A stretch of DNA of 48,008 nt, from the IMG/VR virus record IMGVR_UViG_2850778813_000004; one strand, given 5' to 3'. Of this stretch, positions 1 through 46,415 are shown piece after piece (the first letter of the stretch is position 1; each line of letters begins with the position of its first letter). The DNA comes from a virus (lineage: Duplodnaviria; Heunggongvirae; Uroviricota; Caudoviricetes). The position numbers were made by a program, and so were the translations under genes. The notes below the pieces were generated by a model, which saw only the letters and a list, made by a program, of their open reading frames with translations, did no database searches and was not told the origin of the DNA.

Positions 1-420
1 ATGGAACAGAAAGCATTATCTGCAGAACCCCGCAGATCATTTTCAAATGAGTTTAAACTTCAAATGGTTAAACTGGCTTCACAACCAGGAGCCTCTGTTG
101 CCCGTATTGCCCGGGAACACGATATCAATGATAACCTGCTGTTCAAATGGCTCAGGCTCTGGCAGAACGAAGGGCGCATATCGCGGCGTCTTCCGGTAAC
201 AACCTCTTCTGACACTGGCGTTGAATTATTACCTGTGGAGATAACGCCGGATGAGCCGAAAGAACCGGTGGCTGCTCTTACTCCGTCTTTATCTACTCAG
301 ACTACAGTTAGTGCCAGCTCCTGCAAGGTGGAGTTCCGTCACGGTAACATGACGCTGGAAAATCCTTCACCAGAGCTGCTCACAGTGTTGATCCGTGAAC
401 TGACCGGGAGGGGACGATGA
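1..420 (+). CDS. IS66-family accessory protein TnpA (orfA)
   Basis: 139-aa ORF at the start of the three-gene IS66 unit; helix-turn-helix-like N-terminus; identical to 45619-46038. Confidence 0.85.
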   Translation: MEQKALSAEPRRSFSNEFKLQMVKLASQPGASVARIAREHDINDNLLFKWLRLWQNEGRISRRLPVTTSSDTGVELLPVEITPDEPKEPVAALTPSLSTQTTVSASSCKVEFRHGNMTLENPSPELLTVLIRELTGRGR

Positions 421-767
421 TCTCACACCCGTCAGGCACCCGCATCTGGCTCGTTGCTGGGATAACCGATATGCGTAAGTCTTTCAACGGGCTGGGTGAA
501 CAGGTACAGCATGTGCTGAATGATAATCCCTTCTCCGGTCACCTGTTCATCTTCCGTGGCCGACGGGGTGACATGATTAAAATCCTGTGGGCTGATGCTG
601 ATGGTCTGTGCCTGTTCACCAGACGCCTGGAGGAAGGCCAGTTTATCTGGCCTGCTGTGCGTGACGGCAAGGTATCCATTACCCGCTCGCAACTGGCAAT
701 GCTCCTCGATAAGCTGGACTGGCGTCAGCCAAAAACATCCCGCCTTAACGCACTGACAATGTTGTAA
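417..767 (+). CDS. IS66-family TnpB (orfB)
   Basis: 116-aa ORF overlapping orfA stop by 4 nt (ATGA); identical to 46035-46385. Confidence 0.85.
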   Translation: MISHPSGTRIWLVAGITDMRKSFNGLGEQVQHVLNDNPFSGHLFIFRGRRGDMIKILWADADGLCLFTRRLEEGQFIWPAVRDGKVSITRSQLAMLLDKLDWRQPKTSRLNALTML

Positions 768-797
768 AAATGTCATGGCCGGATTATAAAAACGGCC

Positions 798-2390
798 ATG
801 AATCAAAAATACCTCATTCGCATTGCAGAACTGGAATGCCAGCTCCGTCAGAAAGACCAGCAACTGAGTCTGGTTGAAGAGACGGAGGCCTTCCTGCGCT
901 CTGCACTGGCCCGCGCCGAAGAAAAGATCGAAGAAGATGAACGGGAAATAGAACATCTGCGGGCTCAGATAGAAAAACTGCGCCGGATGCTGTTCGGTAC
1001 CCGTTCTGAAAAACTGCGTCGTGAAGTTGAACAGGCTGAGGCCCTGCTGAAACAACGCGAACAGGACAGTGATCGTTACAGTGGGCGGGAAGACGATCCG
1101 CAGGTTCCCCGCCAGTTGCGACAGTCTCGTCATCGTCGCCCGTTACCGGAGCATCTGCCCCGCGAAATAAATCGCCTGGAGCCAGAAGAAAGCTGTTGCC
1201 CGGAGTGTGGCGGTGAGCTGGATTATCTGGGGGAAGTCAGCGCAGAACAACTGGAACTGGTGAGCAGCGCTCTGAAAGTGATCCGCACAGAACGGGTAAA
1301 AAAAGCCTGTACAAAATGTGACTGCATCGTTGAAGCACCGGCACCATCCCGTCCGATAGAGCGTGGTATCGCGGGCCCGGGGTTACTTGCCCGCATGTTA
1401 ACGGGAAAATACTGCGAACACCTGCCACTGTATCGTCAGAGTGAAATTTTTGCCCGTCAGGGTGTCGAACTGAGCCGTGCATTACTCTCCAACTGGGTTG
1501 ACGCGTGCTGCCAGTTAATGACGCCGCTGAATGATGCTCTGTACCGTTATGTGATGAACAGCCGCAAAGTTCACACTGATGACACACCAGTAAAAGTGCT
1601 GGCACCGGGCAGGAAGAAGGCGAAAACAGGATATATCTGGACGTATGTCCGGGATGACAGGAATGCCGGTTCGCCAGAGCCTCCGGCGGTCTGGTTCGCC
1701 TACTCACCGGACCATCAGGGTAAACATCCGGAGCAGCACCTTAGTCCCTTCCGGGGTATCCTGCAGGCAGATGCGTTTAATGGTTACGATCGGCTGTTCA
1801 GTGCCGAACGAGAAGGCGGCGCGTTGACGGAAGCAGGATGCTGGGCTCATGCGCGGCGCAAAGTCCACGATGTATATATCAGTACCAAAAGCGCGACAGC
1901 GGAAGAAGCCCTGAAACTAATCGGTGAGCTGTACGCCATCGAGCACGAAATACGCGGGTTGCCGGTGTCTGAACGCCTGGCGGTCAGGCAAATGCAGAGT
2001 AAACCGCTACTGACTTCCCTGTATAAGCTGATGCAGGAGAAAGAACACACGTTATCGAAAAAATGCCGTCTGAGAGATGCGTTCCGGTATATCAGGAAGC
2101 ACTGGGTTGCGTTGTGCAACTTCAGTGATGATGGTCTGGCTGAGGCGGATAATAATGCCGCGGAAAGAGCGCTTCGTGCAGTCTGTCTCGGAAAGAAAAA
2201 CTTTATGTTCTTCGGCAGCGATCACGGTGGAGAGCGTGGTGCGCTACTGTACGGGCTGATCGGCACCTGCCGACTGAACGGTATCGATCCGGAAGCGTAT
2301 CTGCGCTATATCCTGAGCGTACTGCCGGAATGGCCTTCCAACCGTGTTGACGAACTCCTGCCATGGAACGTAGCACTCACCAATAAATAA
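798..2390 (+). CDS. IS66-family transposase TnpC
   Basis: 530-aa ORF with coiled-coil N-terminus, CxxC...CxxC zinc-finger motif (CPECG...CTKCD) and the conserved IS66 catalytic region; second copy at 46416-48008. Confidence 0.9.
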   Translation: MNQKYLIRIAELECQLRQKDQQLSLVEETEAFLRSALARAEEKIEEDEREIEHLRAQIEKLRRMLFGTRSEKLRREVEQAEALLKQREQDSDRYSGREDDPQVPRQLRQSRHRRPLPEHLPREINRLEPEESCCPECGGELDYLGEVSAEQLELVSSALKVIRTERVKKACTKCDCIVEAPAPSRPIERGIAGPGLLARMLTGKYCEHLPLYRQSEIFARQGVELSRALLSNWVDACCQLMTPLNDALYRYVMNSRKVHTDDTPVKVLAPGRKKAKTGYIWTYVRDDRNAGSPEPPAVWFAYSPDHQGKHPEQHLSPFRGILQADAFNGYDRLFSAEREGGALTEAGCWAHARRKVHDVYISTKSATAEEALKLIGELYAIEHEIRGLPVSERLAVRQMQSKPLLTSLYKLMQEKEHTLSKKCRLRDAFRYIRKHWVALCNFSDDGLAEADNNAAERALRAVCLGKKNFMFFGSDHGGERGALLYGLIGTCRLNGIDPEAYLRYILSVLPEWPSNRVDELLPWNVALTNK

Positions 2391-2414: not shown

Positions 2415-2986
2415 GCTGATATGACTTTCCGTGTCAAACCGGAATCTCTAATTTTGACGATTTTCTTTTTAGGTTTAATTCCCTGAGGGCGACGTAGCAG
2501 TAAATCCGACGGTGAATCACGCTGATATTCGCGGGTTGGATACCGCATTACAGAGGTCCGTCATATGAGCCTGCCACTTTCTTACGTCGCGAATCAGCTT
2601 TGTTCCGCCGTCGCCAAGCGCTAACGTGGGTTACTCTTGTACCGGGCTACGTCGCCTTCAGGGAACTGGTTATTCTCATTTTTTATTTGTGACATTGTGG
2701 TTGTTGTGCGACAGACATTGCTATTCGGCCCATATCCCAGATAAAACCCGCCAGCTCACGTGCAACAGCAACAATTGTAATATTGACATTCTTTCCTTTG
2801 GCCTGAAGTTTTCGATACCTCTTACAAAGCCTGAGTTGAGCATCCCATGCTCTGTCAATGACGGGGCGGGGTAAATTTTCCTGCCTTTTTTGTATTGCCG
2901 GACTGATGCGTGCCGGATGACGGTAACTCCACGCTGCCTCGACCAATAGCTTTCTGGCATAGCTGTTTCCGGCTTTGGTAATGCTG
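2415..2986. repeat. 568-bp tandem direct duplication of 2983-3554 (IS110-family transposase 3' end plus downstream sequence)
   Basis: Identity starts at 2415 vs 2983 (gctgatatgactttcc...) and runs to 2986 vs 3554; the units share a 4-bp junction gctg. Duplicated ORFs 2626-2874 and 3194-3442 are identical. Confidence 0.9.
2683..2946 (-). pseudogene. Duplicated 3' fragment of the IS110-family transposase gene
   Basis: 87-aa ORF identical to the C-terminal 87 residues of the 3251-4378 transposase; lies inside the tandem duplicate. Confidence 0.8.
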
Positions 2987-4500
2987 ATATGACTTTCCGT
3001 GTCAAACCGGAATCTCTAATTTTGACGATTTTCTTTTTAGGTTTAATTCCCTGAGGGCGACGTAGCAGTAAATCCGACGGTGAATCACGCTGATATTCGC
3101 GGGTTGGATACCGCATTACAGAGGTCCGTCATATGAGCCTGCCACTTTCTTACGTCGCGAATCAGCTTTGTTCCGCCGTCGCCAAGCGCTAACGTGGGTT
3201 ACTCTTGTACCGGGCTACGTCGCCTTCAGGGAACTGGTTATTCTCATTTTTTATTTGTGACATTGTGGTTGTTGTGCGACAGACATTGCTATTCGGCCCA
3301 TATCCCAGATAAAACCCGCCAGCTCACGTGCAACAGCAACAATTGTAATATTGACATTCTTTCCTTTGGCCTGAAGTTTTCGATACCTCTTACAAAGCCT
3401 GAGTTGAGCATCCCATGCTCTGTCAATGACGGGGCGGGGTAAATTTTCCTGCCTTTTTTGTATTGCCGGACTGATGCGTGCCGGATGACGGTAACTCCAC
3501 GCTGCCTCGACCAATAGCTTTCTGGCATAGCTGTTTCCGGCTTTGGTAATGCTGCCCTGATGTCTGCTTCCACCCGATGAATATTCTGATGGCGTGATAC
3601 CAAACCATGACATCAGTTGTCGTGGATGTTCAAAACGGGTCAGATCACCCAGTTCAGAAATTAATCCAACCGCAGTAATAAACTGAATCCCTCGCATGGC
3701 TTGCAGCGCCTCTACTACCGGATACAGCCTCCATTCGGTAACGGCCTCCTTCAGGGCGGATTCCAGCCGTTCACATTGTGCCTGCCGGTCTTCTATTGTA
3801 CGACGGTGTTCGTCAAAAGCTAATTGTCGCCAGGGACTTTCGAATGAGTATTTGCTGAGCCAGCGTCGGTGTGCAGGGCCCCAATCTGCTCGCCCGACAT
3901 AATGGACCCCATGAACCAGAAGAAACGATTTCAGACGTTGCCTTGCATGCCGTAAATCATCGCGGGCAGATGCCCATGCCCGGGCCAAATCCCGGAATGC
4001 CTCATCTTCAATGCCGGGTACGTAGACAGCAGAAAGATCTCCTGCACGCAGTGAACGCACAAGTCTGATGGCATCACGGCGATCGGTTTTAACCCGCTCC
4101 CCCGGTTTTTTCGGGATAAGTGAGGGGGCGCAGACCATGCAGTCAAAACCGGATTTCACCAGCCGACGATAAAGTCCATAACCACAGGGCCCCGCTTCAT
4201 AAACGATACTGACCTGCGATGACTTTGACCTGAGACGTTTACAAAGATTCTGAATATCAGTAGGTGATGTGCCAATTTTACCCATCAGTTCAACAGGTTC
4301 TGAATTGATAGCATAAGCGACAGTAATCGATTCTTTGTGAACATCTAACCCGACGTACAATGTGTTATTGTTGTTCATGCTGGCCTCCGTGGTGGAAATA
4401 CCGGGGTGTAGCAACAGCTCACCCATGCGGCTCTGACAACGATGTTAACCCGCGTTAAATATCCCACGTTGGCCAGCATCTGTCTCACGGAAAGTCATAC
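2987..4500 (-). mobile_element. IS110-family insertion sequence (boundaries approximate)
   Basis: Single transposase gene with DEDD-type N-terminus (LYVGLDVHKESI); no terminal inverted repeats, as expected for IS110. rcnA homology resumes at about 4505; the lower boundary is taken at the duplication junction. Confidence 0.6.
3251..4378 (-). CDS. IS110-family transposase
   Basis: 375 aa from ATG at 4378, preceded by GGAGG (complement of 4386-4390). N-terminal MNNNNTLYVGLDVHKE motif and C-terminal region typical of IS110/IS1111 transposases. Confidence 0.85.
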   Translation of the reverse strand: MNNNNTLYVGLDVHKESITVAYAINSEPVELMGKIGTSPTDIQNLCKRLRSKSSQVSIVYEAGPCGYGLYRRLVKSGFDCMVCAPSLIPKKPGERVKTDRRDAIRLVRSLRAGDLSAVYVPGIEDEAFRDLARAWASARDDLRHARQRLKSFLLVHGVHYVGRADWGPAHRRWLSKYSFESPWRQLAFDEHRRTIEDRQAQCERLESALKEAVTEWRLYPVVEALQAMRGIQFITAVGLISELGDLTRFEHPRQLMSWFGITPSEYSSGGSRHQGSITKAGNSYARKLLVEAAWSYRHPARISPAIQKRQENLPRPVIDRAWDAQLRLCKRYRKLQAKGKNVNITIVAVARELAGFIWDMGRIAMSVAQQPQCHK

Positions 4501-5645: not shown

Positions 5646-5700
5646 GGTGATGCTGCCAACTTACTGATTTAGTGTATGATGGTGTTTTTGAGGTGCTCCA

Positions 5701-5976
5701 GTGGCTTCTGTTTCTATCAGCTGTCCCTCCTGTTCAGCTACTGACGGGGTGGTGCGTAACGGCAAAAGCACTGCCGGACATCAGCGCTATCTCTGCTCTC
5801 ACTGCCGTAAAACATGGCAACTGCAGTTCACTTACACCGCTTCTCAACCCGGTACGCACCAGAAAATTATTGATATGGCCATGAATGGCGTTGGATGCCG
5901 GGCAACTGCACGCATTATGGGCGTTAGCCTCAACACGATTTTACGTCACTTAAAAAACTCAGGCCGCAGTCGGTAA
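5701..5976 (+). CDS. insA: IS1 InsA
   Basis: 91-aa ORF (GTG start) [30 protein letters not shown]... Confidence 0.9.
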
Positions 5977-6020
5977 CCTCGCGCATACAGCCGGGCAGTG
6001 ACGTCATCGTCTGCGCGGAA

Positions 6021-6263
6021 ATGGACGAACAGTGGGGATACGTCGGGGCTAAATCGCGCCAGCGCTGGCTGTTTTACGCGTATGACAGGCTCCGGAAGAC
6101 GGTTGTTGCGCACGTATTCGGTGAACGCACTATGGCGACGCTGGGGCGTCTTATGAGCTTGCTGTCACCCTTTGACGTGGTGATATGGATGACGGATGGC
6201 TGGCCACTGTATGAATCCCGCCTGAAGGGAAAGCTGCACGTAATCAGCAAGCGATATACGTAG
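6021..6263 (+). pseudogene. insB: IS1 insB with premature stop
   Basis: TAG at 6261-6263 where the other three copies have CAG (e.g. 15718-15720); ORF is 80 aa instead of 125. Confidence 0.75.
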
Positions 6264-6413
6264 CGAATTGAGCGGCATAACCTGAATCTGAGGCAGCACC
6301 TGGCACGGCTGGGACGGAAGTCGCTGTCGTTCTCAAAATCGGTGGAGCTGCATGACAAAGTCATCGGGCATTATCTGAACATAAAACACTATCAATAAGT
6401 TGGAGTCATTACC

Positions 6414-11924: not shown

Positions 11925-12490
11925 ATGAGACACTTTATCTATCAGGACGAAAAATCACATAAATTCTGGGCGGTTGAGCAGCAGGGAAACGAGCTGCATA
12001 TCAACTGGGGCAAAGTCGGCACTAACGGGCAAAGCCAGATAAAAAGTTTTGCGGATGCTGCGGCAGCGGCAAAAGCGGAGCTTAAGCTGATCGCAGAGAA
12101 AACGAAAAAAGGCTATGTGGAAAATGCTTCAGCAAACGTGCATATCCCCCCCATTACCAAAGCCACTCCTGAAGTTGAAACTTCCCCTGAGAGTAAAAAC
12201 CAACGCCCCTGGCTGGCTGATGATGCGGTCATTCGGCTAACTGACGATATTAATCGATTTGCTTTTCCTCATCGCTCTCGCCCCAGAGGGATCAATTATC
12301 TGCACAAAGATGGTCAAATATGGCAGCTCATCGCGAATAACACCAGGGCATATGATCCCGCCAACAATTACCGTTCTTATCCAGAAAACTGGCAGCAGGC
12401 TTTTGCTGAGTTACAAATGCGAGTTCAAGGTAATCAACAGACAGGGAGTGCACAATCTGATGCAGCATTGCTCTGGAGTTTCTGGAACTC
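11925..12490 (+). pseudogene. molR: molR-like gene, 5' fragment (WGR domain), cut by IS600-like element
   Basis: N-terminus MRHFIYQDEKSHKFWAVEQQGNELHINWGKVGTNGQ is a WGR domain as in K-12 MolR; ORF runs into the IS end at 12491. Confidence 0.7.
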
Positions 12491-12984
12491 TGAGGTGTAC
12501 TGGCAATAGCGGACACTACCATTTGTTCTTTTTTTAAGCAGCCATCTGATGATATTTTTCCCTGAAGGCTGCCGGGGAGATATTCCCCAGACGAGAGTGA
12601 CGACGCTGACGATTGTAGAAAATCTCAATGTATTCCCGTATTACTGAGATGGCTTCATCCCGGTTATTAAAACGATAGTGGCTCAGGCTCTCATTTTTCA
12701 GCGTTCCCCAGAAGCTTTCCATCGGAGCGTTGTCGTAACAGTGACCTTTACGCGACATTGATGTTTTCAGACCAGACTGCTCCTGTATGACCCGGTAATC
12801 GTATGCGCAGTACTGTGAACCTCGATCAGAGTGGTGGATTAGCCCGGCAGGTGGGCGCTGGCTCCTGAGCGCCATAAACAGGGCTTTACCTGTTAGACTG
12901 GCCCCCTGAATCTCCAGACAACCAGTATCACTTAAATAAGTGATAGTCTTAATACTAGTTTTTAGACTAGTCATTGGAGTACAG

Positions 12985-14213: not shown

Positions 14214-14723
14214 GGGCAAATCCACCTGTCAGCTCTTTTGTCATGCGCTCTCCCATGGCGTAGCCGACAATTTCGCACGTATAAACATCTTTGATGCCAG
14301 CGAGGTACAACCATCCCTCCTGTGTGGCAACATACGTCAGGTCCGCCACCCAGACCTGATTTGGTGCTGTAGGAGCGAACGTCTGGTTCAGCAGATTTGG
14401 CGCAACTGGCAGATTGTGGTTCGGGTTCGTAGTCGCTCTGAACTTGCGTTTCTGCTTACAGCGTAGCCTTAGCTCCTTACGAAGACGTGCCAGTCGGTCA
14501 CGACCAACGATGATGCCATTCTCTGCCAGCTCCGTCTGGAGCCGCCGGGTTCCATATGTTTCGCGAGTGCGGATATGTGCCACCTTAATCTCCAGTTTTA
14601 GCCGCTCATCACTTTGTTTTCTGTCTGAGGGTTCATGCTGTACCCAGTTGTAATAACCGCTCCTGGATACACCAAATACCTGACACATCGCTTCAATGGG
14701 AAATTGTTGTCGCCATTGTTCGA

Positions 14724-15026
14724 TTAACGCGTATTTTTCAGCGACTCCTGTGCAAAATACGCTGTTGCTTTTTTTAATATATCTCGCTCAAGGCGAGCTT
14801 CATTTAACGCCTTACGCAGTTGCAGAATTTCAGATTCCAGTTCAGCCACCGTGCGGGAACCAGGAGTACCGAGCCCTTTTCTGGCGGCGGTAACCCATTG
14901 TCCTAAAGTGCCTTCAGGAAGGGATAATCGGGAAGCGCCTTCACTGATCGAAAGTTGATTTTCAAGAACCGTTCTGACAGCTTCGGCTTTGAACTCTTTA
15001 GAGTAACGTTGGTTTTTTCTGCTCAT
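14724..15026 (-). CDS. IS600-like orfA
   Basis: 100-aa ORF MSRKNQRYSKEFKAEAVRTVLENQ...; identical to 44688-44990. Confidence 0.85.
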   Translation of the reverse strand: MSRKNQRYSKEFKAEAVRTVLENQLSISEGASRLSLPEGTLGQWVTAARKGLGTPGSRTVAELESEILQLRKALNEARLERDILKKATAYFAQESLKNTR

Positions 15027-15149
15027 TATTAGCTCCTTCTGATGCCATTCTATTTCAGGAAGGAGTGTCCGTTAAACTCAGGCTACCTCACTCTGGTGAT
15101 GCTGCCAACTTACTGATTTAGTGTATGATGGTGTTTTTGAGGTGCTCCA

Positions 15150-15425
15150 GTGGCTTCTGTTTCTATCAGCTGTCCCTCCTGTTCAGCTACTGACGGGGTG
15201 GTGCGTAACGGCAAAAGCACTGCCGGACATCAGCGCTATCTCTGCTCTCACTGCCGTAAAACATGGCAACTGCAGTTCACTTACACCGCTTCTCAACCCG
15301 GTACGCACCAGAAAATTATTGATATGGCCATGAATGGCGTTGGATGCCGGGCAACTGCACGCATTATGGGCGTTAGCCTCAACACGATTTTACGTCACTT
15401 AAAAAACTCAGGCCGCAGTCGGTAA
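15150..15425 (+). CDS. insA: IS1 InsA
   Basis: 91-aa ORF identical to the other copies. Confidence 0.9.
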
Positions 15426-15469
15426 CCTCGCGCATACAGCCGGGCAGTGACGTCATCGTCTGCGCGGAA

Positions 15470-15847
15470 ATGGACGAACAGTGGGGATACGTCGGGGCTA
15501 AATCGCGCCAGCGCTGGCTGTTTTACGCGTATGACAGGCTCCGGAAGACGGTTGTTGCGCACGTATTCGGTGAACGCACTATGGCGACGCTGGGGCGTCT
15601 TATGAGCTTGCTGTCACCCTTTGACGTGGTGATATGGATGACGGATGGCTGGCCACTGTATGAATCCCGCCTGAAGGGAAAGCTGCACGTAATCAGCAAG
15701 CGATATACGCAGCGAATTGAGCGGCATAACCTGAATCTGAGGCAGCACCTGGCACGGCTGGGACGGAAGTCGCTGTCGTTCTCAAAATCGGTGGAGCTGC
15801 ATGACAAAGTCATCGGGCATTATCTGAACATAAAACACTATCAATAA
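15470..15847 (+). CDS. insB: IS1 InsB reading frame (expressed as InsAB' by frameshifting)
   Basis: Intact 125-aa ORF at IS positions 376-753. Confidence 0.85.
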
Positions 15848-15862
15848 GTTGGAGTCATTACC

Positions 15863-19595: not shown

Positions 19596-19621
19596 TTACA
19601 GGAGGGGGTAATGACTCCAAC

Positions 19622-19999
19622 TTATTGATAGTGTTTTATGTTCAGATAATGCCCGATGACTTTGTCATGCAGCTCCACCGATTTTGAGAACGACAGCGAC
19701 TTCCGTCCCAGCCGTGCCAGGTGCTGCCTCAGATTCAGGTTATGCCGCTCAATTCGCTGCGTATATCGCTTGCTGATTACGTGCAGCTTTCCCTTCAGGC
19801 GGGATTCATACAGTGGCCAGCCATCCGTCATCCATATCACCACGTCAAAGGGTGACAGCAAGCTCATAAGACGCCCCTGCGTCGCCATAGTGCGTTCACC
19901 GAATACGTGCGCAACAACCGTCTTCCGGAGCCTGTCATACGCGTAAAACAGCCAGCGCTGGCGCGATTTAGCCCCGACGTATCCCCACTGTTCGTCCAT
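19622..19999 (-). CDS. insB: IS1 InsB reading frame
   Basis: 125-aa ORF, IS1 copy c. Confidence 0.85.
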
Positions 20000-20043
20000 T
20001 TCCGCGCAGACGATGACGTCACTGCCCGGCTGTATGCGCGAGG

Positions 20044-20319
20044 TTACCGACTGCGGCCTGAGTTTTTTAAGTGACGTAAAATCGTGTTGAGGCTAACGCC
20101 CATAATGCGTGCAGTTGCCCGGCATCCAACGCCATTCATGGCCATATCAATAATTTTCTGGTGCGTACCGGGTTGAGAAGCGGTGTAAGTGAACTGCAGT
20201 TGCCATGTTTTACGGCAGTGAGAGCAGAGATAGCGCTGATGTCCGGCAGTGCTTTTGCCGTTACGCACCACCCCGTCAGTAGCTGAACAGGAGGGACAGC
20301 TGATAGAAACAGAAGCCAC
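20044..20319 (-). CDS. insA: IS1 InsA
   Basis: 91-aa ORF, IS1 copy c. Confidence 0.9.
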
Positions 20320-20387
20320 TGGAGCACCTCAAAAACACCATCATACACTAAATCAGTAAGTTGGCAGCATCACCACAGGAGGGTGTT

Positions 20388-20636
20388 ATGCGTGTTGAGA
20401 TCTGTATCGCTAAAGAAAAAATCACTAAAATGCCAAACGGTGCTGTGGATGCGTTAAAGGAAGAATTAACCCGACGCATCAGTAAACGTTATGACGATGT
20501 AGAGGTGATCGTAAAAGCCACCAGCAACGATGGCCTTTCTGTTACGCGCACCGCCGATAAAGATTCAGCTAAAACTTTTGTTCAGGAGACTCTGAAAGAT
20601 ACCTGGAAGTCTGCTGACGAGTGGTTTTTTCACTAA
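20388..20636 (+). CDS. DinI-family SOS protein (prophage-borne)
   Basis: 82 aa from ATG at 20388 with SD aggagg inside the IS1 target duplicate; [37 protein letters not shown]... has the DinI fold signature (acidic C-terminus ...SADEWFFH). Confidence 0.8.
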
Positions 20637-20719
20637 TTAACACGTAAAATCGGTAACAGCTGGAAATCATTCAATACTCGCACTATCGAAAGTTCGCCAG
20701 CCAGCCGTGGCACGTTCTT

Positions 20720-20830
20720 GCATACGACGTGCTACGGTTTCATTCATCTCCGACCGGAAACTTCTTATACAAAGTCGATACGCCAACATCATAGATGATC
20801 ACCACCTTCTGGCGAGAAACTCCTGATGCA
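20720..20830 (-). pseudogene. C-terminal relic (36 codons) of a Gin/Pin/Hin-type DNA invertase
   Basis: Translation AQAGRQIASGVSRQKVVIIYDVGVSTLYKKFPVGDE-stop contains the conserved helix-turn-helix motif IIYDVGVSTLYKxFP of tail-fibre-switching serine invertases; upstream frame is closed by TAG at 20831-20833. Confidence 0.6.
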
Positions 20831-20952
20831 ATTTGTCGTCCGGCCTGTGCCTATTGCTCCGGCGTGAGAGTAATACAGTAAACTGTAGAAAAAGCCCATT
20901 AAACCTAATATAATAATAAGTTACAGAATTATCTTTACTGAATAATAGATAT

Positions 20953-21498
20953 ATGAATATTAGTGAACTTAAAAAGTGCATACACTATGAAGTAATAGGT
21001 TGTAAACGCCCTTTCTCCTGGCGAAAAGCAATTGTTCGCGCAATAAAACACAGAAGATCACGTTATTTATTTTGGTGGCGCATAGCAAAATATCTTTTTG
21101 ATAAAGGCGGATACCGGCGAAAGATTGCAGGAAAAATAGAACGCTTCATTCTTGATAAATACAATGTAACCGTTCCCTTAACTGTAAATATTGGTAAAGG
21201 GTTCGACATATCTTATCTCAATGGCGTTGTTATCGGTCACAAAGTTACAATAGGTGAAAATTGTTCAATTAAGCCTGGGGTAACTATTGGACTTCGCGGT
21301 GAATTTAATGATATGGATATTGTCATAGGAAATAATGTAACCATTGGCTGTAACGCCACCATCCTTGGTGGCAAAGTGCATATAGGGAATAATGTAAAAA
21401 TAGGAGCTCATGCATTGGTACTGCATGACATTCCTGATGACTCCACATTCATTACCAAATTTCACTCTGAAATTATTTATAATTCATCTCACACATAA
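20953..21498 (+). CDS. Hexapeptide-repeat (left-handed beta-helix) O-acetyltransferase, CysE/WcaB-like, on AT-rich cargo DNA
   Basis: 181-aa ORF; tandem [LIV]-G-x-x-x-x hexapeptides (VIGHKVTIGENCSIKPGVTIGLRGE...IVIGNNVTIGCNATILGGKVHIGNNVKIGAHALV) and CysE-like N-terminal helices; visibly AT-rich relative to flanking phage genes. Confidence 0.75.
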   Translation: MNISELKKCIHYEVIGCKRPFSWRKAIVRAIKHRRSRYLFWWRIAKYLFDKGGYRRKIAGKIERFILDKYNVTVPLTVNIGKGFDISYLNGVVIGHKVTIGENCSIKPGVTIGLRGEFNDMDIVIGNNVTIGCNATILGGKVHIGNNVKIGAHALVLHDIPDDSTFITKFHSEIIYNSSHT

Positions 21499-21508
21499 TT
21501 CCGTTTAA

Positions 21509-22081
21509 TCACAGCTCAGGCCATACGATATCCGGGGCTGTATTTATATCAATCCGACTCACTAATACCCGGTATTTTTTCCAGGAAGATAGCATCGAAA
21601 CCTCCTCATCAGTTGCCATTTCAAAATTAACAGCATCCTGCAGAATTGTTATGTTATCAGTCGCTTCCTGGATTAATCTTGTCTTTTTCTCTTCCGCCTC
21701 CCGGATCCGGAAGAGTTTTTCTGCTTCCGTATCCTTCACCCAGGCTGTGCCGTTCCACTTCTGAAACTCCCCTTCCGGGGATAACCAAGTGACATTTCCC
21801 GGTAATGAGCCGAGTTCAGAAATAAATAACGCGTCGCCGGAAGCCACGTCATAAACCGTTTTACCCCGATGATCTTCAACGAGATGCCACGATGCCTCAT
21901 CACTGTTGAAAACAGCCACAAAGCCAGCAGGAATATCTGGTGGTGCAATATCGGTACTGTTTGCTGGCAGACCTGTATGAGGCGGAATATATGCGTCACC
22001 TTCACCAATAAATTCATTAGTTCCGGCCAGCAGATTATAAATTTTTATGGTCCGTGCTTGTTCACTCATTCTGAATGCCAT
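21509..22081 (-). CDS. tfa: Tail fibre assembly protein Tfa
   Basis: 190 aa starting [37 protein letters not shown]...; start overlaps the stf stop (TAATG). Confidence 0.85.
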
Positions 22082-23447
22082 TATGCAAGCCTCACAATAT
22101 AGTTAAATGCGATGTTTTTGACGGTGTTTTCCGCGTTACCCGCAGCGTTAACGGTGATGGTGTGTCCATGTGAACCAATCGCAACGGAGTGCGTATGCGC
22201 ACCAATACCTACAGTATGTGCATGTGCGCCAGAACTTGCTGCAGTACCAGACAGCGAGTGGGTATGAGCACCTGCTGACTGTGTCTGAATACGTTGATAA
22301 TACGATCTACGGGAAGAAGTCCCCGGGCTTACTTGATACTGTGAATTCTGGACATAAGTGAACCCACCGCCATCATAAAATGCTAACGCAGAACCGCCGC
22401 CTCCTGGCCAACGAATACCATTACCATGAGTATGAACACCGGCAGACCCCGTAGAGCCACTCAGACTGTGCGTATGCGCCCCGGTGTTATTCGTGGATTT
22501 AGTGCCGTAATCAAACGACGATGTGGTTTTCGTCCCCAAATCCGTACTGGATGCGCTGGCGCTGTGGGTGTGCGATTTAATGCCGTCCTGTTCCTGAGAC
22601 AATACGGCCCGACCACTGGCAGGTTTGCCCTTAATCGTCCAGCCACGCATATCAGGGATCACGCCTGACGGATAAGCGGCTGCAAGTTTCGGGTAAGCAG
22701 ATTTGTCAAAAGTCTGCCCCTGCATCAGGGCATAACCAGACGGAACGGTATCTGATGGCCACGGGATTGGTGCGCCGACTGGGTAGCTTTCTGGTGGAAG
22801 ATTTTTCGAGGTATAAACTTCTGCCCAGCCTTCCTCAAAACCATAACCGTCTCTTGAAGAACGGTAGAACAGACCACCATTTCTGTAATGCGCCTTCATC
22901 TGCAGGGTCCGGCAACTTCCGACTCCGGTATAGAAGTTAACCAGAATATAGCTGTCGCCAGAGCGGGTGACATTGTAAGCGCCTGATTCGGCATTCCAGG
23001 GAACGGCTCCATCCGAATCCGCATAAGCCCCCGTCGAACGTCGGGCAAATGCACCAATATTTTCCGGCGTGAGGTTAATATCCGCCGAGCCATCAAACTT
23101 AACACCGTTAATTTTTGGGGCTGCCGCAAGTTTCGTCGCGGTATCGGCGTTCCCCTTCAGTGCCCCGGTGATCCCATCAGTAACAAACAACGGACCTGAA
23201 ATAGTCCCTCCAGTCGTTGGCAGCGCTCCAATATCTGATGGTGTAGGTTTCTGATGTGAGCTATACATCGTATAAACAACACCATAGGTAACGCTGGAAG
23301 GCTTACTCGCTGAATATGTTGGCGAGGTATAAACAGAAACTGACGCATTTGCAGTACAATCCCAATGGATATTTACACTCGTCGCATAATTGGGTGATGC
23401 TGCCAACTTACTGATTTAGTGTATGATGGTGTTTTTGAGGTGCTCCA

Positions 23448-23723
23448 GTGGCTTCTGTTTCTATCAGCTGTCCCTCCTGTTCAGCTACTGACGGGGTGGT
23501 GCGTAACGGCAAAAGCACTGCCGGACATCAGCGCTATCTCTGCTCTCACTGCCGTAAAACATGGCAACTGCAGTTCACTTACACCGCTTCTCAACCCGGT
23601 ACGCACCAGAAAATTATTGATATGGCCATGAATGGCGTTGGATGCCGGGCAACTGCACGCATTATGGGCGTTAGCCTCAACACGATTTTACGTCACTTAA
23701 AAAACTCAGGCCGCAGTCGGTAA
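23448..23723 (+). CDS. insA: IS1 InsA
   Basis: 91-aa ORF, IS1 copy d. Confidence 0.9.
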
Positions 23724-23767
23724 CCTCGCGCATACAGCCGGGCAGTGACGTCATCGTCTGCGCGGAA

Positions 23768-24145
23768 ATGGACGAACAGTGGGGATACGTCGGGGCTAAA
23801 TCGCGCCAGCGCTGGCTGTTTTACGCGTATGACAGGCTCCGGAAGACGGTTGTTGCGCACGTATTCGGTGAACGCACTATGGCGACGCTGGGGCGTCTTA
23901 TGAGCTTGCTGTCACCCTTTGACGTGGTGATATGGATGACGGATGGCTGGCCACTGTATGAATCCCGCCTGAAGGGAAAGCTGCACGTAATCAGCAAGCG
24001 ATATACGCAGCGAATTGAGCGGCATAACCTGAATCTGAGGCAGCACCTGGCACGGCTGGGACGGAAGTCGCTGTCGTTCTCAAAATCGGTGGAGCTGCAT
24101 GACAAAGTCATCGGGCATTATCTGAACATAAAACACTATCAATAA
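23768..24145 (+). CDS. insB: IS1 InsB reading frame
   Basis: 125-aa ORF, IS1 copy d. Confidence 0.85.
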
Positions 24146-26042
24146 GTTGGAGTCATTACCGCATAATTGCCAATCTCAACGTAAATATCATATGTATCGC
24201 CGGATGTGTTGATCCAGGCGAAATTCGTTAATCCGACGGCTGTACGCTTCCACAAAGCCCCGGTAATTCCTTTGGGGTTTCCATTGCCTGCTCGTAGAAC
24301 CAGTTCTGAAATGCCTGCCTGATGTGGGGAACCGACGTTGTAACCAGCGCCACCAATCAATGCGATGTAAACGATGGAACTCGCTTGTGGCATGGTAACC
24401 GTAGCCAGTTTGAACCACCCAGCCCCGCCAGAGAAAGACATCGTTACTGAATTTAAAGTACCAATATCTTTCGGCGTTAATGTTATATCCGCAGTCAATG
24501 CTTTTCCGTTAACTTTTCGGTTAGATGGCACCCTGCTATTCGCATTGTCATTGGCTGCTTTAACTGCTTTTGGCGTTGCGGCCAGCGATTCACTGGTGCT
24601 ATCAACAGCACTGCTAAGTTTCACAACACCTTTAGTTGTAAGGCTTGCGTCTTCCATCGCAACTGCACCGGCAATCTCTTCAGCACGATCAGCAGCAGCT
24701 TCCGCACGGGTCGCAGCGGATTCAGCAGTAGTTTTGCTCTGAGATGCTGCCGTCGCACTGCCTGCCGCCTCTGTTGCCTTCGTGGATGCCGTCGTGGCGC
24801 TGCTCTTCGCTGCTGACGCTTGTCTGGTCGCCTCATCTTTTGAAGCAGACGCCGATGATGCCGATGACGCCGCCGAACTGGCGGACGATGCGGCAGCCGT
24901 TTTTGAGGATTCTGCGCTGGTTTCCGACGCTTTCGCGTTCGTTTCGGATGTCTTCGCTGCGGAAGCAGACCTCGCTGCTGCGCTGGCCTGTTCAGTGGCT
25001 TCGCCAGCCTTCGTTGTGGCTGTTGAAGCAGACGATGCGGAGCTTTCTGCCGATTTTCCGGCGGCGGTGACACTGGCTGAGGCCTGCCCGGCACTTGTTG
25101 ACGCTGCACTGGCAGACGACGCAGCCGCTGTTTTTGAGCCTGCCGCAGCTGAGGCACTCTGTTCCGCTGCCGTTTCAGAAGACCTGGCGTTTGTCTCAGA
25201 CGTTTTTGCCGCCTTCGCAGAATTTGCTGCCGCCGTTGCCGAGGAAGCTGCGCTGCTGGCGCTCGAGGCTGCGTTCGTTTCTGATGATTTTGCCGCCTCT
25301 TTTGAAGCCGACGCATCCCGTGCTGAAGTGGCTGCTTCTGACGCTTTCGTGGTCGCGGTGGATGCAGAAGTGGCTGCTGATTGTTGTGACGCTGCCGCAT
25401 TCGTTTCTGACGTTTTCGCCGCACCGGCACTGGTAGCCGCCGCGCTTTTTGAGGACTCTGCAGCGGCAGCACTTTTTAATGCTTCAGTGGCCTTTGTTGA
25501 TGCCGTTCCTGCGCTGGAAGACGCTGACTGAGCCGACGACGCGGCCTGTCCGGCTGACGTGCTGGCGGCACGTGCTGAGGCTGCAGCATCGGTTGCATGA
25601 GTTGCCGCCTCGCTGGCTGATGCACTGGCATCGCTGGCTGATTTTTTCGCGGCTGCCGTATTCTGTGCAACCGCGGAGGCGTTACGTGACACCTCTTCCA
25701 CCATCTGCTCAAAGCGGCGCAGTGCCTCCGGTCGGACATCATCCTCCGTCATGGCACCGAGAAAATCATTCAGCGTACCTGGTCTGGAACCTTCATAGAC
25801 GGTAATGGTCCCGGCATGTGAAGGCGGAAAACCTTCAACCAGCAGGGTGACGCTGTACTGACCATGCTCAACATCCATGCTGTAACGTCCGGCTTCATCC
25901 GGATTTTCAGAGGCCACCGTGTTCACCACCACCGTGCTGCTGGTTCGTCTGGCCTTCAGCACAATGGTGCAGTTCTGTACTGGTTTTCCTGTGCCATCTT
26001 TAAGCACGCCAGAAATTTTTACTGTCATACTTTTCCACCAAT

Positions 26043-43709: not shown

Positions 43710-43833
43710 AGCGTACTACGTTACTTATCTTTATTCGGCTGCAACTTATCCGGTACGTTTCCGGCAGTTTCCATCAGATAATCGGACAGCTGAGGTGTAC
43801 TGGCAATAGCGGACACTACCATTTGTTCTTTTT

Positions 43834-44652
43834 TTAAGCAGCCATCTGATGATATTTTTCCCTGAAGGCTGCCGGGGAGATATTCCCCAGACGAGAGTGA
43901 CGACGCTGACGATTGTAGAAAATCTCAATGTATTCCCGTATTACTGAGATGGCTTCATCCCGGTTATTAAAACGATAGTGGCTCAGGCTCTCATTTTTCA
44001 GCGTTCCCCAGAAGCTTTCCATCGGAGCGTTGTCGTAACAGTGACCTTTACGCGACATTGATGTTTTCAGACCAGACTGCTCCTGTATGACCCGGTAATC
44101 GTATGCGCAGTACTGTGAACCTCGATCAGAGTGGTGGATTAGCCCGGCAGGTGGGCGCTGGCTCCTGAGCGCCATAAACAGGGCTTTACCTGTCAGCTCT
44201 TTTGTCATGCGCTCTCCCATGGCGTAGCCGACAATTTCGCACGTATAAACATCTTTGATGCCAGCGAGGTACAACCATCCCTCCTGTGTGGCAACATACG
44301 TCAGGTCCGCCACCCAGACCTGATTTGGTGCTGTAGGAGCGAACGTCTGGTTCAGCAGATTTGGCGCAACTGGCAGATTGTGGTTCGGGTTCGTAGTCGC
44401 TCTGAACTTGCGTTTCTGCTTACAGCGTAGCCTTAGCTCCTTACGAAGACGTGCCAGTCGGTCACGACCAACGATGATGCCATTCTCTGCCAGCTCCGTC
44501 TGGAGCCGCCGGGTTCCATATGTTTCGCGAGTGCGGATATGTGCCACCTTAATCTCCAGTTTTAGCCGCTCATCACTTTGTTTTCTGTCTGAGGGTTCAT
44601 GCTGTACCCAGTTGTAATAACCGCTCCTGGATACACCAAATACCTGACACAT
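43834..44652 (-). CDS. IS600-like orfB (DDE transposase)
   Basis: 272-aa ORF with the IS3-family DDE region (...LIHHSDRGSQYCA...CYDNAPMESFWGTLKNE...). Confidence 0.85.
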   Translation of the reverse strand: MCQVFGVSRSGYYNWVQHEPSDRKQSDERLKLEIKVAHIRTRETYGTRRLQTELAENGIIVGRDRLARLRKELRLRCKQKRKFRATTNPNHNLPVAPNLLNQTFAPTAPNQVWVADLTYVATQEGWLYLAGIKDVYTCEIVGYAMGERMTKELTGKALFMALRSQRPPAGLIHHSDRGSQYCAYDYRVIQEQSGLKTSMSRKGHCYDNAPMESFWGTLKNESLSHYRFNNRDEAISVIREYIEIFYNRQRRHSRLGNISPAAFREKYHQMAA

Positions 44653-44687
44653 CGCTTCAATGGGAAATTGTTGTCGCCATTGTTCGA

Positions 44688-44990
44688 TTAACGCGTATTT
44701 TTCAGCGACTCCTGTGCAAAATACGCTGTTGCTTTTTTTAATATATCTCGCTCAAGGCGAGCTTCATTTAACGCCTTACGCAGTTGCAGAATTTCAGATT
44801 CCAGTTCAGCCACCGTGCGGGAACCAGGAGTACCGAGCCCTTTTCTGGCGGCGGTAACCCATTGTCCTAAAGTGCCTTCAGGAAGGGATAATCGGGAAGC
44901 GCCTTCACTGATCGAAAGTTGATTTTCAAGAACCGTTCTGACAGCTTCGGCTTTGAACTCTTTAGAGTAACGTTGGTTTTTTCTGCTCAT
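44688..44990 (-). CDS. IS600-like orfA
   Basis: 100-aa ORF identical to 14724-15026. Confidence 0.85.
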   Translation of the reverse strand: MSRKNQRYSKEFKAEAVRTVLENQLSISEGASRLSLPEGTLGQWVTAARKGLGTPGSRTVAELESEILQLRKALNEARLERDILKKATAYFAQESLKNTR

Positions 44991-45145
44991 TATTAGCTCC
45001 TTCTGATGCCATTCTATTTCAGGAAGGAGTGTCCGTTAAACTCAGGCTACCTCAATCAGCGCCAGTCAGTCAGCCGGAGCAAAAACAGAAGCCCCACTCA
45101 TTCCGGAACAACCTTCTTAATAACCCATTTCAACGAGAAAATCCT

Positions 45146-46385: not shown

Positions 46386-46415
46386 AAATGTCATGGCCGG
46401 ATTATAAAAACGGCC

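What the first reader, a model, noticed from the sequence alone, without database searches (positions are those of the whole stretch)
20834..21508. AT-rich cargo gene for a hexapeptide-repeat O-acetyltransferase sits where the invertible tail-fibre segment should be
Between tfa (stop 21509) and the invertase relic (20720-20830) lies about 675 bp of strongly AT-rich DNA carrying one plus-strand gene (20953-21498) convergent with tfa. Its product has CysE/WcaB-type left-handed beta-helix hexapeptide repeats, typical of polysaccharide or small-molecule O-acetyltransferases. In lambdoid and Mu/P1-type phages this slot normally holds alternative fibre tips or the invertase. Composition and position suggest a horizontally acquired moron that could modify surface polysaccharide (serotype conversion or superinfection exclusion) or a metabolite.
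Basis: partly seen in the sequence, partly recalled or inferred. Interest (0 to 1): 0.5.

Follow-up and report, generated by a model that had tools for sequence, protein, structure and literature searches.

The report
Phage tail-fibre-linked acetyltransferase-like cargo gene
A small AT-rich cargo gene beside a prophage's tail-fibre genes encodes an acetyltransferase-fold protein that databases wrongly call serine acetyltransferase; it travels with the fibre genes through several phage types, has lost the usual catalytic residues, and has no known function.

Summary
ORF 20953-21498 (+), 181 aa, lies in a 630-bp block of 34% GC (window 52%) and converges on tfa, 10 bp from its stop. It replaces the 5' three quarters of a pin invertase and the alternative fibre tips.

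The wider Enterobacterales family keeps acidic+His+Gln. The window's clade lost all three, yet evolves under strong purifying selection (median dN/dS 0.08).

The promoter-sat-tfa-fibre-tip module is shared at 85% DNA identity between lambdoid, myovirus and P1-like contexts. In P1-like phage JL22 a homologue lies inside the invertible segment. A few distant homologues sit beside LPS-core-type enzyme genes.

Best guess, inferred only: a lysogen-expressed protein that alters an envelope glycan, perhaps LPS core, and so a phage receptor. Its chemistry is uncertain. I class it as a new variant of a known kind, of moderate interest.

The parts
20953..21498 (+). Cargo gene ('sat'), 181 aa: an N-terminal four-helix domain (residues ~3-69) followed by a left-handed beta-helix of hexapeptide repeats. 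PHROG 2154. Exact protein = UniRef B2TVY8_SHIB3 'Acetyltransferase' (Shigella).
21169..21171 (+). Codon Thr73, aligned with CysE Asp143 (partner of the catalytic His). It is acidic in 147 of 201 family sequences and T/K/V in the window's clade.
   Evidence: phmmer alignments to three solved SATs; family alignments; role of Asp143 from PMC9547175.
21214..21216 (+). Codon Tyr88, aligned with CysE general base His158. It is His in all 80 species-representative genome homologues and Tyr in every member of the window's clade.
   Evidence: PMC9547175.
21274..21276 (+). Codon Pro108, aligned with CysE active-site Gln178. It is Gln in 135 of 201 family sequences and Pro in the Tyr clade.
20886..20914 (+). 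Sigma-70-like promoter candidate, TAGAAA-17-TATAAT (10 of 12), 39 bp upstream of the ATG. Both hexamers are kept in alleles that are only 85% identical in DNA. There is no clear Shine-Dalgarno sequence.
   Evidence: Consensus scan; alignment of seven alleles. Function was not tested.
20879..21508 (.). AT-rich foreign block (GC 0.34). Its left edge is where homology to the myovirus and P1-like copies of the module begins.
   Evidence: blastn against L003, L021, L023 and L025 starts at 20879-20885 and runs to 22272; composition.
20740..20868 (-). pin (Din-family DNA invertase) relic: the last 42 of 184 codons with an in-frame stop, plus the stop codon. The catalytic N-terminal three quarters are gone.
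   Evidence: tblastn with PinE of L090. RefSeq annotates the same stretch in E. coli as a pseudogene.
21509..22081 (-). tfa, tail fibre assembly protein, 190 aa, convergent with the cargo gene. It is the constant neighbour of the cargo gene in the phage-derived copies examined.
   Evidence: Pfam Caudo_TAP 1.4e-37. Context survey: 59 of 80 viral loci.
22081..23406 (-). C-terminal (receptor-binding) part of the side tail fibre gene stf, cut off from its N-terminal part (24139-26028) by IS1 at 23393-24160.
   Evidence: Pfam Collar, Phage_fiber and gp37_C; IS1 copies. E. coli H10407 and USMARC-49610 carry one long stf gene at this position, frameshifted in H10407 and intact in USMARC-49610.
20361..20636 (+). 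DinI-like gene at the prophage end, upstream of the pin relic.
   Evidence: Pfam DinI 1.5e-18. Same order next to prfC in E. coli H10407.

Best explanation
The gene is a phage 'moron', a self-contained cargo gene. It has its own conserved promoter-like site, foreign AT-rich composition, and the opposite orientation to the late tail operon. It forms one exchangeable module with the tail-fibre tip and its chaperone (promoter-sat-tfa-stf tip). That module moves between lambdoid, P2-type/myovirus and P1-like phages. In this prophage it occupies the place of the alternative fibre tips and of the 5' part of the pin invertase.

The product is a soluble protein with a serine-acetyltransferase-like fold: a short helical domain plus a left-handed beta-helix, presumably trimeric. 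It belongs to an Enterobacterales-wide family (PHROG 2154). That family is not CysE.

Most likely mechanism (inferred, not shown). The protein is made in the lysogen. From the cytoplasmic side it acts on a precursor of an envelope glycan. The best lead is the LPS core, the kind of receptor used by P1-, P2- and Mu-type fibres (from my own knowledge). This would change the cell surface and reduce adsorption of phages that carry the same kind of fibre, in the way prophage-encoded NeuO protects K1 strains.

The window's own clade has replaced the canonical acid/His/Gln active-site residues with Thr/Tyr/Pro while staying under strong purifying selection. Its chemistry is therefore probably different from ordinary O-acetyl transfer: base-independent (N-)acyl transfer, Tyr-assisted transfer, or substrate binding without turnover.
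For: Fold and family
- Pfam Hexapep; phrog_2154 over the full length, E 2.8e-77.

Not CysE
- NCBIfam scores against cut-offs: EpsC 85 vs 150, CysE 77 vs 211, WcaB 60 vs 196.
- D143, D157, H158, Q178, R192 and H193 are all replaced (residue roles from PMC9547175).

Moron
- GC 0.365 and GC3 0.287 against 0.46-0.52 in the flanks.
- A promoter-like site is conserved across alleles.
- DNA matching the ORF was found in only 315 of 5426 E. coli genomes.

Module
- 85% DNA identity from 20879 through sat and tfa into the stf tip, shared with myovirus and P1-like loci whose upstream DNA is unrelated.
- A convergent Tfa-like ORF lies within -37 to +50 bp in 59 of 80 viral loci.
- sat alleles only 38-52% identical sit beside Tfa 57-81% identical and, in most cases, fibre tips about 75% identical.
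- JL22 carries a homologue inside the cin-S'-U'-sat-tfa-stf segment.

Functional protein
- Median dN/dS is 0.084 over 225 pairs within the Tyr clade.
- The exact protein was seen on 542 contigs.

Envelope-glycan lead
- Distant homologues with the canonical acid/His pair lie next to a GT8 WaaI-like gene (L097), an InaA LPS kinase plus a WaaQ-like GT9 (L149), a WaaQ-like GT9 plus a GT4 (L166), a GT9-like gene (L126) and a weak GT9-like gene on a phage contig (L056).

Precedent
- Prophage-borne LbH NeuO acetylates the K1 capsule and protects against K1 phage (PMC3046976, PMC13001214).
Against: - No experiment or expression datum exists for this gene. The only paper found that mentions such a gene says the reason for its presence is unknown (PMC9603915).
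- The window's clade lacks the general base and its partner, so O-acetyl transfer of the CysE/WcaB kind is doubtful.
- The LPS-gene neighbourhood is seen in only about 5 of 160 loci. All of these are homologues 37-47% identical with the canonical residues, and the pattern was noticed post hoc.
- Most species-representative homologues lie beside unrelated chromosomal genes; only 5 of 80 lie beside Tfa.
- The link to tfa could simply reflect a harmless insertion site between convergent genes plus hitch-hiking on a frequently exchanged cassette.
- There is no recognisable ribosome-binding site.
- The receptor of this fibre type was not determined here.
Confidence: 0.4

Rival explanations
1. Pseudoenzyme. 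The Tyr clade has lost catalysis and works by binding. For example, it might sequester a nucleotide-sugar or an LPS-core intermediate, block a host glycosyl- or acetyl-transferase, or bind another host or phage protein. The trimeric beta-helix would be kept as a scaffold.
For: Coordinated replacement of three active-site residues that are conserved in the rest of the family: acidic/His/Gln changed to T,K,V/Tyr/Pro in 50 of 201 sequences. The clade is derived and nested within His-type sequences. Purifying selection is strong (dN/dS 0.08), so something other than the canonical reaction is being conserved. The NeuO structure paper states that all crystallised LbH transferases known in 2011 share a catalytic His.
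Against: The C-terminal coils that form the CoA groove in relatives are the best conserved part and are shared with the His clade. The replacing residues are themselves conserved: Tyr88 is invariant, and Asp122 nearly so. That looks more like a re-tooled site than a dead one. From my own knowledge, some LbH N-acetyltransferases (QdtC, WlbB) work without a catalytic base.
Confidence: 0.2
2. Active acyltransferase for a small molecule or nucleotide-sugar unrelated to phage receptors, such as detoxification, antibiotic or metabolite acetylation, or N-acetylation of an amino sugar. It would give the lysogen a metabolic or resistance benefit.
For: Sub-threshold similarity to many LbH enzymes, including Vat, CatB, LacA, Maa and sugar N-acetyltransferases. 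Loss of the general base is compatible with an amine acceptor.
Against: All these similarities fall far below family cut-offs and are confined to the generic beta-helix. The full-length architecture is SAT/EpsC-like. The persistent linkage to the fibre-tip cassette is not explained.
Confidence: 0.15
3. Anti-phage defence or exclusion gene acting inside the cell (abortive infection or toxin-like), placed in a known hot spot for such cargo downstream of the tail-fibre genes.
For: From my own knowledge, the region after the fibre assembly gene in P2-like phages is a cargo hot spot (Z/fun). The gene is AT-rich, self-contained and only occasionally present.
Against: No match to any of the 5027 PADLOC models. 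It is a single small gene with no partner. No LbH-based defence system is known to me.
Confidence: 0.1
4. Genuine serine O-acetyltransferase that boosts cysteine synthesis, as RefSeq and the phage records annotate it.
For: The best-scoring named relatives and best structural matches are SATs.
Against: Scores of 77 bits against a cut-off of 211 (TIGR01172) and 53 against 397 (NF008349). The catalytic His158/Asp143 and the serine-binding Asp157/Arg192/His193 are all replaced. Even the His-type relatives lack the R-H-P serine-binding motif that the EpsC-type sequences keep. The N-terminal domain is about half the CysE length. The C-terminus (…SSHT) does not end in Ile, which is the CysK-binding tail of CysE (my own knowledge).
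Confidence: 0.03
5. Decaying, functionless remnant in a defective prophage.
For: Its neighbours are decayed here: the pin relic carries a stop, and stf is split by IS1.
Against: The ORF is intact. The identical protein is on 542 contigs. dN/dS is 0.08. Homologues are present in sequenced phage genomes: 613R2, yong2, phiNP and JL22.
Confidence: 0.03

Closest known systems
NeuO, the polysialic-acid O-acetyltransferase of E. coli K1 prophage CUS-3 (PDB 3JQY)
   Same: It is a prophage-borne cargo gene encoding a left-handed beta-helix acyltransferase-fold protein. It modifies a surface glycan from the cytoplasm and protects the lysogen against phage (PMC3046976, PMC13001214). From my own knowledge, it is encoded beside the receptor-binding protein gene.
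Serine O-acetyltransferase CysE and the short EpsC/WcaB-type polysaccharide O-acetyltransferases
   Same: These are the best sequence and structure matches, with the same two-domain architecture of an N-terminal helical domain plus LbH. The wider PHROG 2154 family keeps the Asp/Glu-His pair of this group.
   Different: All scores are below the curated cut-offs. The serine-binding residues are absent from the whole family. The window's clade also lacks the catalytic pair. The gene sits in a phage fibre module, not in a cys or EPS operon.
Din-family invertible tail-fibre segments (Mu G, P1 C, e14 P: gin/cin/pin with S/U and S'/U')
   Same: The position is the same. The gene lies between tfa and pin, on the strand where U'/S' would be.
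   Different: No working switch is left. The invertase is reduced to 42 codons with a stop, there are no alternative tips, and no crossover-type inverted repeats were found. The gene is cargo, not a fibre part.
Base-independent LbH sugar N-acetyltransferases (QdtC 3FS8, WlbB 3MQG)
   Different: They lack the SAT-like N-terminal helical domain, share low sequence similarity, and act on dTDP/UDP-amino sugars in O-antigen pathways. No such pathway is linked to this gene.
Receptor-masking genes encoded next to phage receptor-binding genes (T5 llp, phi80/N15 cor; my own knowledge)
   Same: They follow the same logic of placing a lysogen- or early-expressed exclusion function beside the gene that determines receptor choice.
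   Different: Those are small lipoproteins or outer-membrane proteins that block FhuA directly. This gene encodes a cytoplasmic enzyme-fold protein.

Membership tests
Serine O-acetyltransferase CysE (TIGR01172 / NF008349) | Score at or above the curated family cut-off | tested here: not met
   76.9 bits against 210.65; 52.9 bits against 397.
Serine O-acetyltransferase CysE (TIGR01172 / NF008349) | General base His158 with partner Asp143 (E. coli numbering; PMC9547175) | tested here: not met
   Tyr88 and Thr73 align to these positions in three independent SAT alignments and in the family alignments.
Serine O-acetyltransferase CysE (TIGR01172 / NF008349) | Serine/cysteine pocket: Asp157, Gln178, Arg192, His193 | tested here: not met
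   Ser87, Pro108, Met121 and Asp122 occupy these positions. Asp92 lies outside the aligned region.
Serine O-acetyltransferase CysE (TIGR01172 / NF008349) | C-terminal tail ending in Ile that docks into CysK (my own knowledge) | tested here: not met
   The C-terminus is …IIYNSSHT.
Hexapeptide-repeat / left-handed beta-helix acyltransferase superfamily | Hexapeptide repeats that fold into an LbH | tested here: met
Hexapeptide-repeat / left-handed beta-helix acyltransferase superfamily | Catalytic His on a loop at the subunit interface (stated for all LbH structures crystallised by 2011 in PMC3046976) | tested here: not met
   Tyr sits at the CysE-type position. The other His residues (H96, H142, H152, H157) are not conserved even within the clade.
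Hexapeptide-repeat / left-handed beta-helix acyltransferase superfamily | Trimer with acyl-CoA bound between subunits | not testable with these tools
   Only a monomer could be modelled, and no ligand docking was available.
PHROG 2154 (phage protein family, unknown function) | Full-length profile match | tested here: met
   E 2.8e-77; residues 1-180 match profile positions 4-184 of 185.
EpsC / WcaB polysaccharide O-acetyltransferases | Score at or above cut-off, and location in an exopolysaccharide gene cluster | tested here: not met
   EpsC 85.1 against 150; WcaB 60.4 against 196. The neighbours are phage fibre genes.
NeuO-type prophage capsule O-acetyltransferase | Phase-variable 5' heptanucleotide repeats, the catalytic His/Trp pair, and sequence relatedness | tested here: not met
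Phage moron (independently expressed cargo gene) | Foreign composition | tested here: met
   GC 0.365 and GC3 0.287 against 0.46-0.52 in the flanks.
Phage moron (independently expressed cargo gene) | Dispensable: present in only a minority of related prophages | tested here: met
   About 3060 E. coli genomes match the 921-bp region that spans the pin relic, the gene and the tfa 3' end, but only 59 carry this allele with its flanks. The gene's own DNA is found in 315 genomes.
Phage moron (independently expressed cargo gene) | Own promoter and terminator, and expression in the lysogen | tested here: inconclusive
   A conserved consensus promoter match lies at 20886-20914. No terminator fits in the 10-bp gap before tfa. 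No expression data exist.
Din-family invertible fibre switch | Intact invertase, two alternative tip/chaperone sets, inverted crossover sites | tested here: not met
   A 42-codon relic with a stop, a single tip/tfa set, and no suitable inverted repeats.

The most novel reading that the evidence does not exclude
The Tyr-clade protein may be a re-tooled beta-helix enzyme or pseudoenzyme that forms a third, previously unrecognised component of exchangeable tail-fibre tip cassettes (tip + chaperone + 'receptor editor'). It would be shared by lambdoid, P2-type and P1-like phages. It would edit or mask the LPS-core receptor recognised by that very tip, so that lysogens are shielded from phages with the same specificity. 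In P1-like phages, where it lies inside the invertible segment, its expression could even be coupled to which fibre is switched on.
Probability: 0.15. Interest if true: 0.7.

Novelty: new variant of a known kind. Interest (0 to 1): 0.45.

Why it matters
If the protein alters a phage receptor, it would be a widespread and so far unstudied superinfection-exclusion or surface-conversion factor. The exact protein is on 542 contigs, and related DNA is in about 6% of complete E. coli genomes and on P1-like phage-plasmids. Because it travels with receptor-binding modules, it bears on phage host range, phage therapy and LPS antigenicity in E. coli and Shigella.

Two further points stand regardless of function. 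First, the standing database name 'serine acetyltransferase' is wrong and misleads metabolic annotation of phages and prophages. Second, the coordinated loss of the acid/His/Gln active-site residues under strong purifying selection gives a clean natural test case for how beta-helix acyltransferases change chemistry or become pseudoenzymes.

Tried and rejected
- True CysE/SAT was rejected on family cut-offs and on six active-site substitutions.
- A known defence system was rejected: no PADLOC hit.
- NeuO-like phase variation was rejected: no tandem repeats.
- A residual invertible switch was rejected: no crossover-type inverted repeats, and the invertase is reduced to 42 codons.
- The first AF2 model (38 sequences) had pLDDT 55-60 in the beta-helix, and its Foldseek search was uninformative. 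A 75-sequence alignment fixed this.
- E. coli TUM12357 was fetched as a comparator for an intact pin, but the locus was broken by IS26 and useless. FDAARGOS_1059 served instead.
- My first regular-expression reading of the catalytic position in the genome loci matched the wrong motif. I replaced it with hmmalign columns.
- A Biopython NJ bootstrap timed out and was redone with numpy. Support for strict monophyly of the Tyr clade is only 91/200.
- Pfam scanning of the downstream neighbours in the 80 species-representative genomes showed mostly ordinary chromosomal genes (GGDEF, SpoU and others). Tfa linkage is therefore not universal for the wider family.
- Literature searches found no functional study of this gene.
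- Not used: the representative-protein search, metagenome scans and the AFDB fold libraries. I judged them unlikely to add functional information.
Full report
**1. The observation**

The plus-strand ORF 20953-21498 (181 aa) exists as described. It converges on the minus-strand ORF 21509-22081, which is a tail fibre assembly protein (Pfam Caudo_TAP, E 1.4e-37). The two stop codons are 10 bp apart.

Composition is clearly foreign. The ORF has GC 0.365 and GC3 0.287, and its 74-bp leader has GC 0.22. The window averages 0.52, tfa 0.46 and the stf tip 0.51.

The invertase relic is real, but its coordinates need correcting. tblastn with an intact PinE places it at 20743-20868 on the minus strand. 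It covers residues 143-184 of 184 at 88% identity, with Trp148 changed to a stop. The foreign block therefore starts at about 20879 and is about 630 bp long.

**2. The setting**

- The exact protein is UniRef B2TVY8_SHIB3, 'Acetyltransferase', from Shigella. It is the 'asked about' member of a 783-member cluster and was seen on 542 contigs.
- The window carries four IS1 copies and other repeats. This fits a Shigella-type chromosome.
- In E. coli the same arrangement (99.6% identical) lies at the end of a lambdoid prophage next to prfC: dinI-like, 'pin, sat, tfa, stf, lom, J. ETEC H10407 is an example.
- In the window an IS1 (19607-20374) separates dinI from unrelated chromosomal genes. A second, inverted IS1 (23393-24160) splits stf.

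**3. Does it sit where the invertible segment should be?**

Yes. In E. coli FDAARGOS_1059 a related intact system reads pinE(-), alternative tip(+), tfa'(+), then convergent tfa(-) and fibre(-). The window has sat(+) in exactly the place and orientation of the alternative tip and tfa', and only the last 42 codons of pin remain.

In P1-like phage JL22 the order is cin, S', U', sat, then convergent tfa, stf, R. There a homologue lies inside an apparently complete invertible segment, between the two chaperone genes. The authors of that genome noted the gene and stated that the reason for its presence is unknown (PMC9603915).

No crossover-type inverted repeats and no tandem repeats remain in the window.

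**4. What the protein is**

- Pfam finds hexapeptide repeats (E 1.1e-13).
- The best NCBIfam models are EpsC (85 bits, cut-off 150), CysE (77, cut-off 211) and WcaB (60, cut-off 196). All fall far below their cut-offs.
- PHROG 2154, a phage family of unknown function, matches over the full length (E 2.8e-77).
- PADLOC gives nothing.
- An AlphaFold2 model built on 75 homologues reaches pLDDT 90.8. It shows four N-terminal helices followed by a beta-helix.

The fold is SAT-like.

**5. It is not a serine acetyltransferase, and its active site is re-tooled**

In three independent alignments to solved SATs, the E. coli CysE residues map as follows:

| CysE residue | Window residue |
|---|---|
| Asp143 | Thr73 |
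| Asp157 | Ser87 |
| His158 | Tyr88 |
| Gln178 | Pro108 |
| Arg192 | Met121 |
| His193 | Asp122 |

His158 is the general base and Asp143 its partner. The other residues line the serine pocket (PMC9547175).

I collected 201 family sequences from protein searches, 80 viral loci and 80 species-representative genomes. The combinations at positions 73/88/108 were:

| Combination at 73/88/108 | Sequences |
|---|---|
| acidic + His + Gln | 135 |
| non-acidic + Tyr + Pro | 50 |
| other | 16 |

All 80 genome representatives, from Citrobacter, Salmonella, Proteus, Pantoea, Erwinia, Rahnella, Photorhabdus, Gilliamella and others, have acidic + His.

The Tyr sequences form one split in a neighbour-joining tree, nested among His-type sequences. 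Bootstrap support for strict monophyly is weak, at 91/200. This clade holds the window protein, the 91%-identical allele of myoviruses and P1-like phages, the Hafnia phage yong2 protein (52.5%), and metagenomic relatives down to 53% identity.

The clade is not decaying. Median dN/dS is 0.084 over 225 pairs. The substituting residues are themselves conserved: Tyr88 is invariant, and Gly95, Pro108 and Asp122 are nearly so. The C-terminal coils, which form the CoA groove in relatives, are the most conserved part and are shared by both clades.

The serine-binding Arg-His-Pro motif is missing from the whole enterobacterial family, His-type members included. The database name is therefore wrong for all of them.

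**6. The gene travels with the fibre-tip cassette**

- blastn shows 85% DNA identity between the window and myovirus and P1-like loci (L003, L021, L023, L025). It starts at 20879-20885 and runs through sat and tfa into the stf tip, to 22272.
- Upstream of that point the contexts are unrelated. Here it is the pin relic. In L021 it is P1-like lysis and DarA genes. In L025 it is an IncFII RepA. For other alleles (L049, L064, L074) it is P2 GpU and tape-measure genes.
- The left boundary lies just 5' of a promoter-like site, TAGAAA-17-TATAAT (20886-20914). Both hexamers are kept in the 85%-identical alleles.
- Of 80 IMG/VR loci, 59 have a Tfa-like ORF convergent with the gene at -37 to +50 bp. Four more have too little downstream sequence to judge.
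- Every Tyr-type locus except one recombinant (L046) has this neighbour.
- Alleles only 38-52% identical to the window protein lie beside Tfa proteins 57-81% identical, and in most cases beside fibre tips about 75% identical, to those of the window. These include the P1-like alleles, phiNP and L049.
- Nearly identical phage backbones carry different sat alleles at the same site (L049 against L064/L074).
- The wider family is not bound to fibres. In P2-like ESSI2 phages the gene follows int. In the species-representative genomes only 5 of 80 lie beside Tfa, and most neighbours are ordinary chromosomal genes.

**7. A lead to the acceptor**

Several distant, His-type homologues sit in small islets with LPS-core-type enzyme genes.

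- L097: a GT8/GT8C protein most like the LPS 3-alpha-galactosyltransferase (E 2.4e-79), inserted after yejM.
- L149: an InaA-type LPS kinase (above cut-off) and a WaaQ-like heptosyltransferase III.
- L166: a WaaQ-like heptosyltransferase, a GT4 and a second beta-helix acetyltransferase.
- L126: a GT9-like protein and a second acetyltransferase.
- L056, a phage contig: a weak GT9-like ORF.

They amount to about 5 of 160 loci and were noticed post hoc, so this is a lead and not a demonstration. It does fit two pieces of background knowledge. A soluble cytoplasmic enzyme can reach the LPS core, which is built on the inner face of the membrane. P1-, P2- and Mu-type fibres use LPS core as receptor.

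**8. Mechanism and rivals**

Shown:
- the fold
- non-membership of CysE
- foreign composition
- modular linkage to tfa and the stf tip
- purifying selection
- loss of the canonical catalytic residues in this clade

Inferred: expression from its own promoter in the lysogen, and action on an envelope glycan precursor (LPS core is the best lead) with a resulting change in phage adsorption. This follows the precedent of prophage-encoded NeuO, an LbH O-acetyltransferase that protects K1 strains from K1 phage (PMC3046976, PMC13001214). I give this 0.4.

| Rival | Confidence |
|---|---|
| Binding-only pseudoenzyme | 0.2 |
| Transferase for an unrelated small molecule or amino sugar | 0.15 |
| Intracellular defence gene | 0.1 |
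| True SAT | 0.03 |
| Functionless remnant | 0.03 |

The alternative reading of the tfa linkage cannot be excluded. The gap between two convergent gene ends is a harmless landing site, and the gene may simply hitch-hike on a cassette that recombines often.

**9. Novelty and verdict**

The gene family is already in databases, as 'serine acetyltransferase' in RefSeq and as PHROG 2154 of unknown function. I found no functional study.

It works like a known kind of thing, a prophage cargo gene of the beta-helix acyltransferase fold, as NeuO is. It differs in three ways: it belongs to a different subfamily, it is tied to exchangeable fibre-tip cassettes in several phage lineages, and the window's clade has a re-tooled active site without the catalytic His.

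I rate it a new variant of a known kind, with interest 0.45.

Noticed in passing
window 19607-20374 and 23393-24160 (also 5646-6413 and 15095-15862): There are four IS1 copies in 48 kb. The pair at 19607-20374 and 23393-24160 is in inverted orientation. It brackets a 3.0-kb segment (dinI-like, pin relic, sat, tfa, stf tip), like a composite element. The right-hand copy splits the side tail fibre gene into 24139-26028 and 22081-23406.
   Followed up: partly
window 1-2390 and 45619-48008; 14224-15090 = 44188-45054; 12490-12893 = 43790-44193; 2415-2986 = 2983-3554: The two ends of the window are a 2390-bp direct repeat at 99.96% identity. Several other long exact repeats are present, probably further IS elements or duplications that frame the prophage region.
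   Followed up: no
L009 (IMG/VR UViG 2869970738_000008) against window 20375-20652: A contig 100% identical to the window over 20653-24000 joins the IS1 end directly to 20653. The dinI-like gene is therefore absent there. This is either an IS1-adjacent deletion or a different insertion point in a sister strain.
   Followed up: no
L007 (phage JL22) 1773-9586: In this P1-like phage-plasmid the homologous gene lies inside the cin-controlled segment (cin, S', U', sat | tfa, stf, R). Inversion would place it downstream of and co-directional with the switched-on fibre genes, so its expression could depend on the switch state.
   Followed up: partly
L097 2872-4693; L149 3007-5631; L166 2016-6334; L126 992-3534; L056 2392-4124: Distant homologues (37-47% identical, with canonical Asp/Glu-His) form small islets with LPS-core-type genes: GT8 WaaI-like, InaA LPS kinase, WaaQ-like and other GT9 heptosyltransferase-like proteins, GT4, and often a second beta-helix acetyltransferase.
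   Followed up: partly
window 20935-20953: Relative to the 187-aa alleles (MLNN[RK][DN]M…), the window allele has a 1-nt deletion and base changes that remove the upstream ATG. Translation must therefore start at 20953. No Shine-Dalgarno sequence is evident before either start.
   Followed up: partly
L049 against L064/L074, 1-4600: Nearly identical P2-type tail-gene backbones (tape measure, GpU) carry sat alleles of different subclades at the same site (52% against 39-40% identity to the window protein). This indicates allele replacement by cassette exchange.
   Followed up: partly
E. coli E1624, NZ_CM173935.1 2403896-2405140 (hit H133): One E. coli genome has the gene interrupted by IS1 and lying next to a 'pyocin knob domain' protein and a second DapH/DapD/GlmU-related protein. 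This suggests further contexts, possibly tailocin-like.
   Followed up: no
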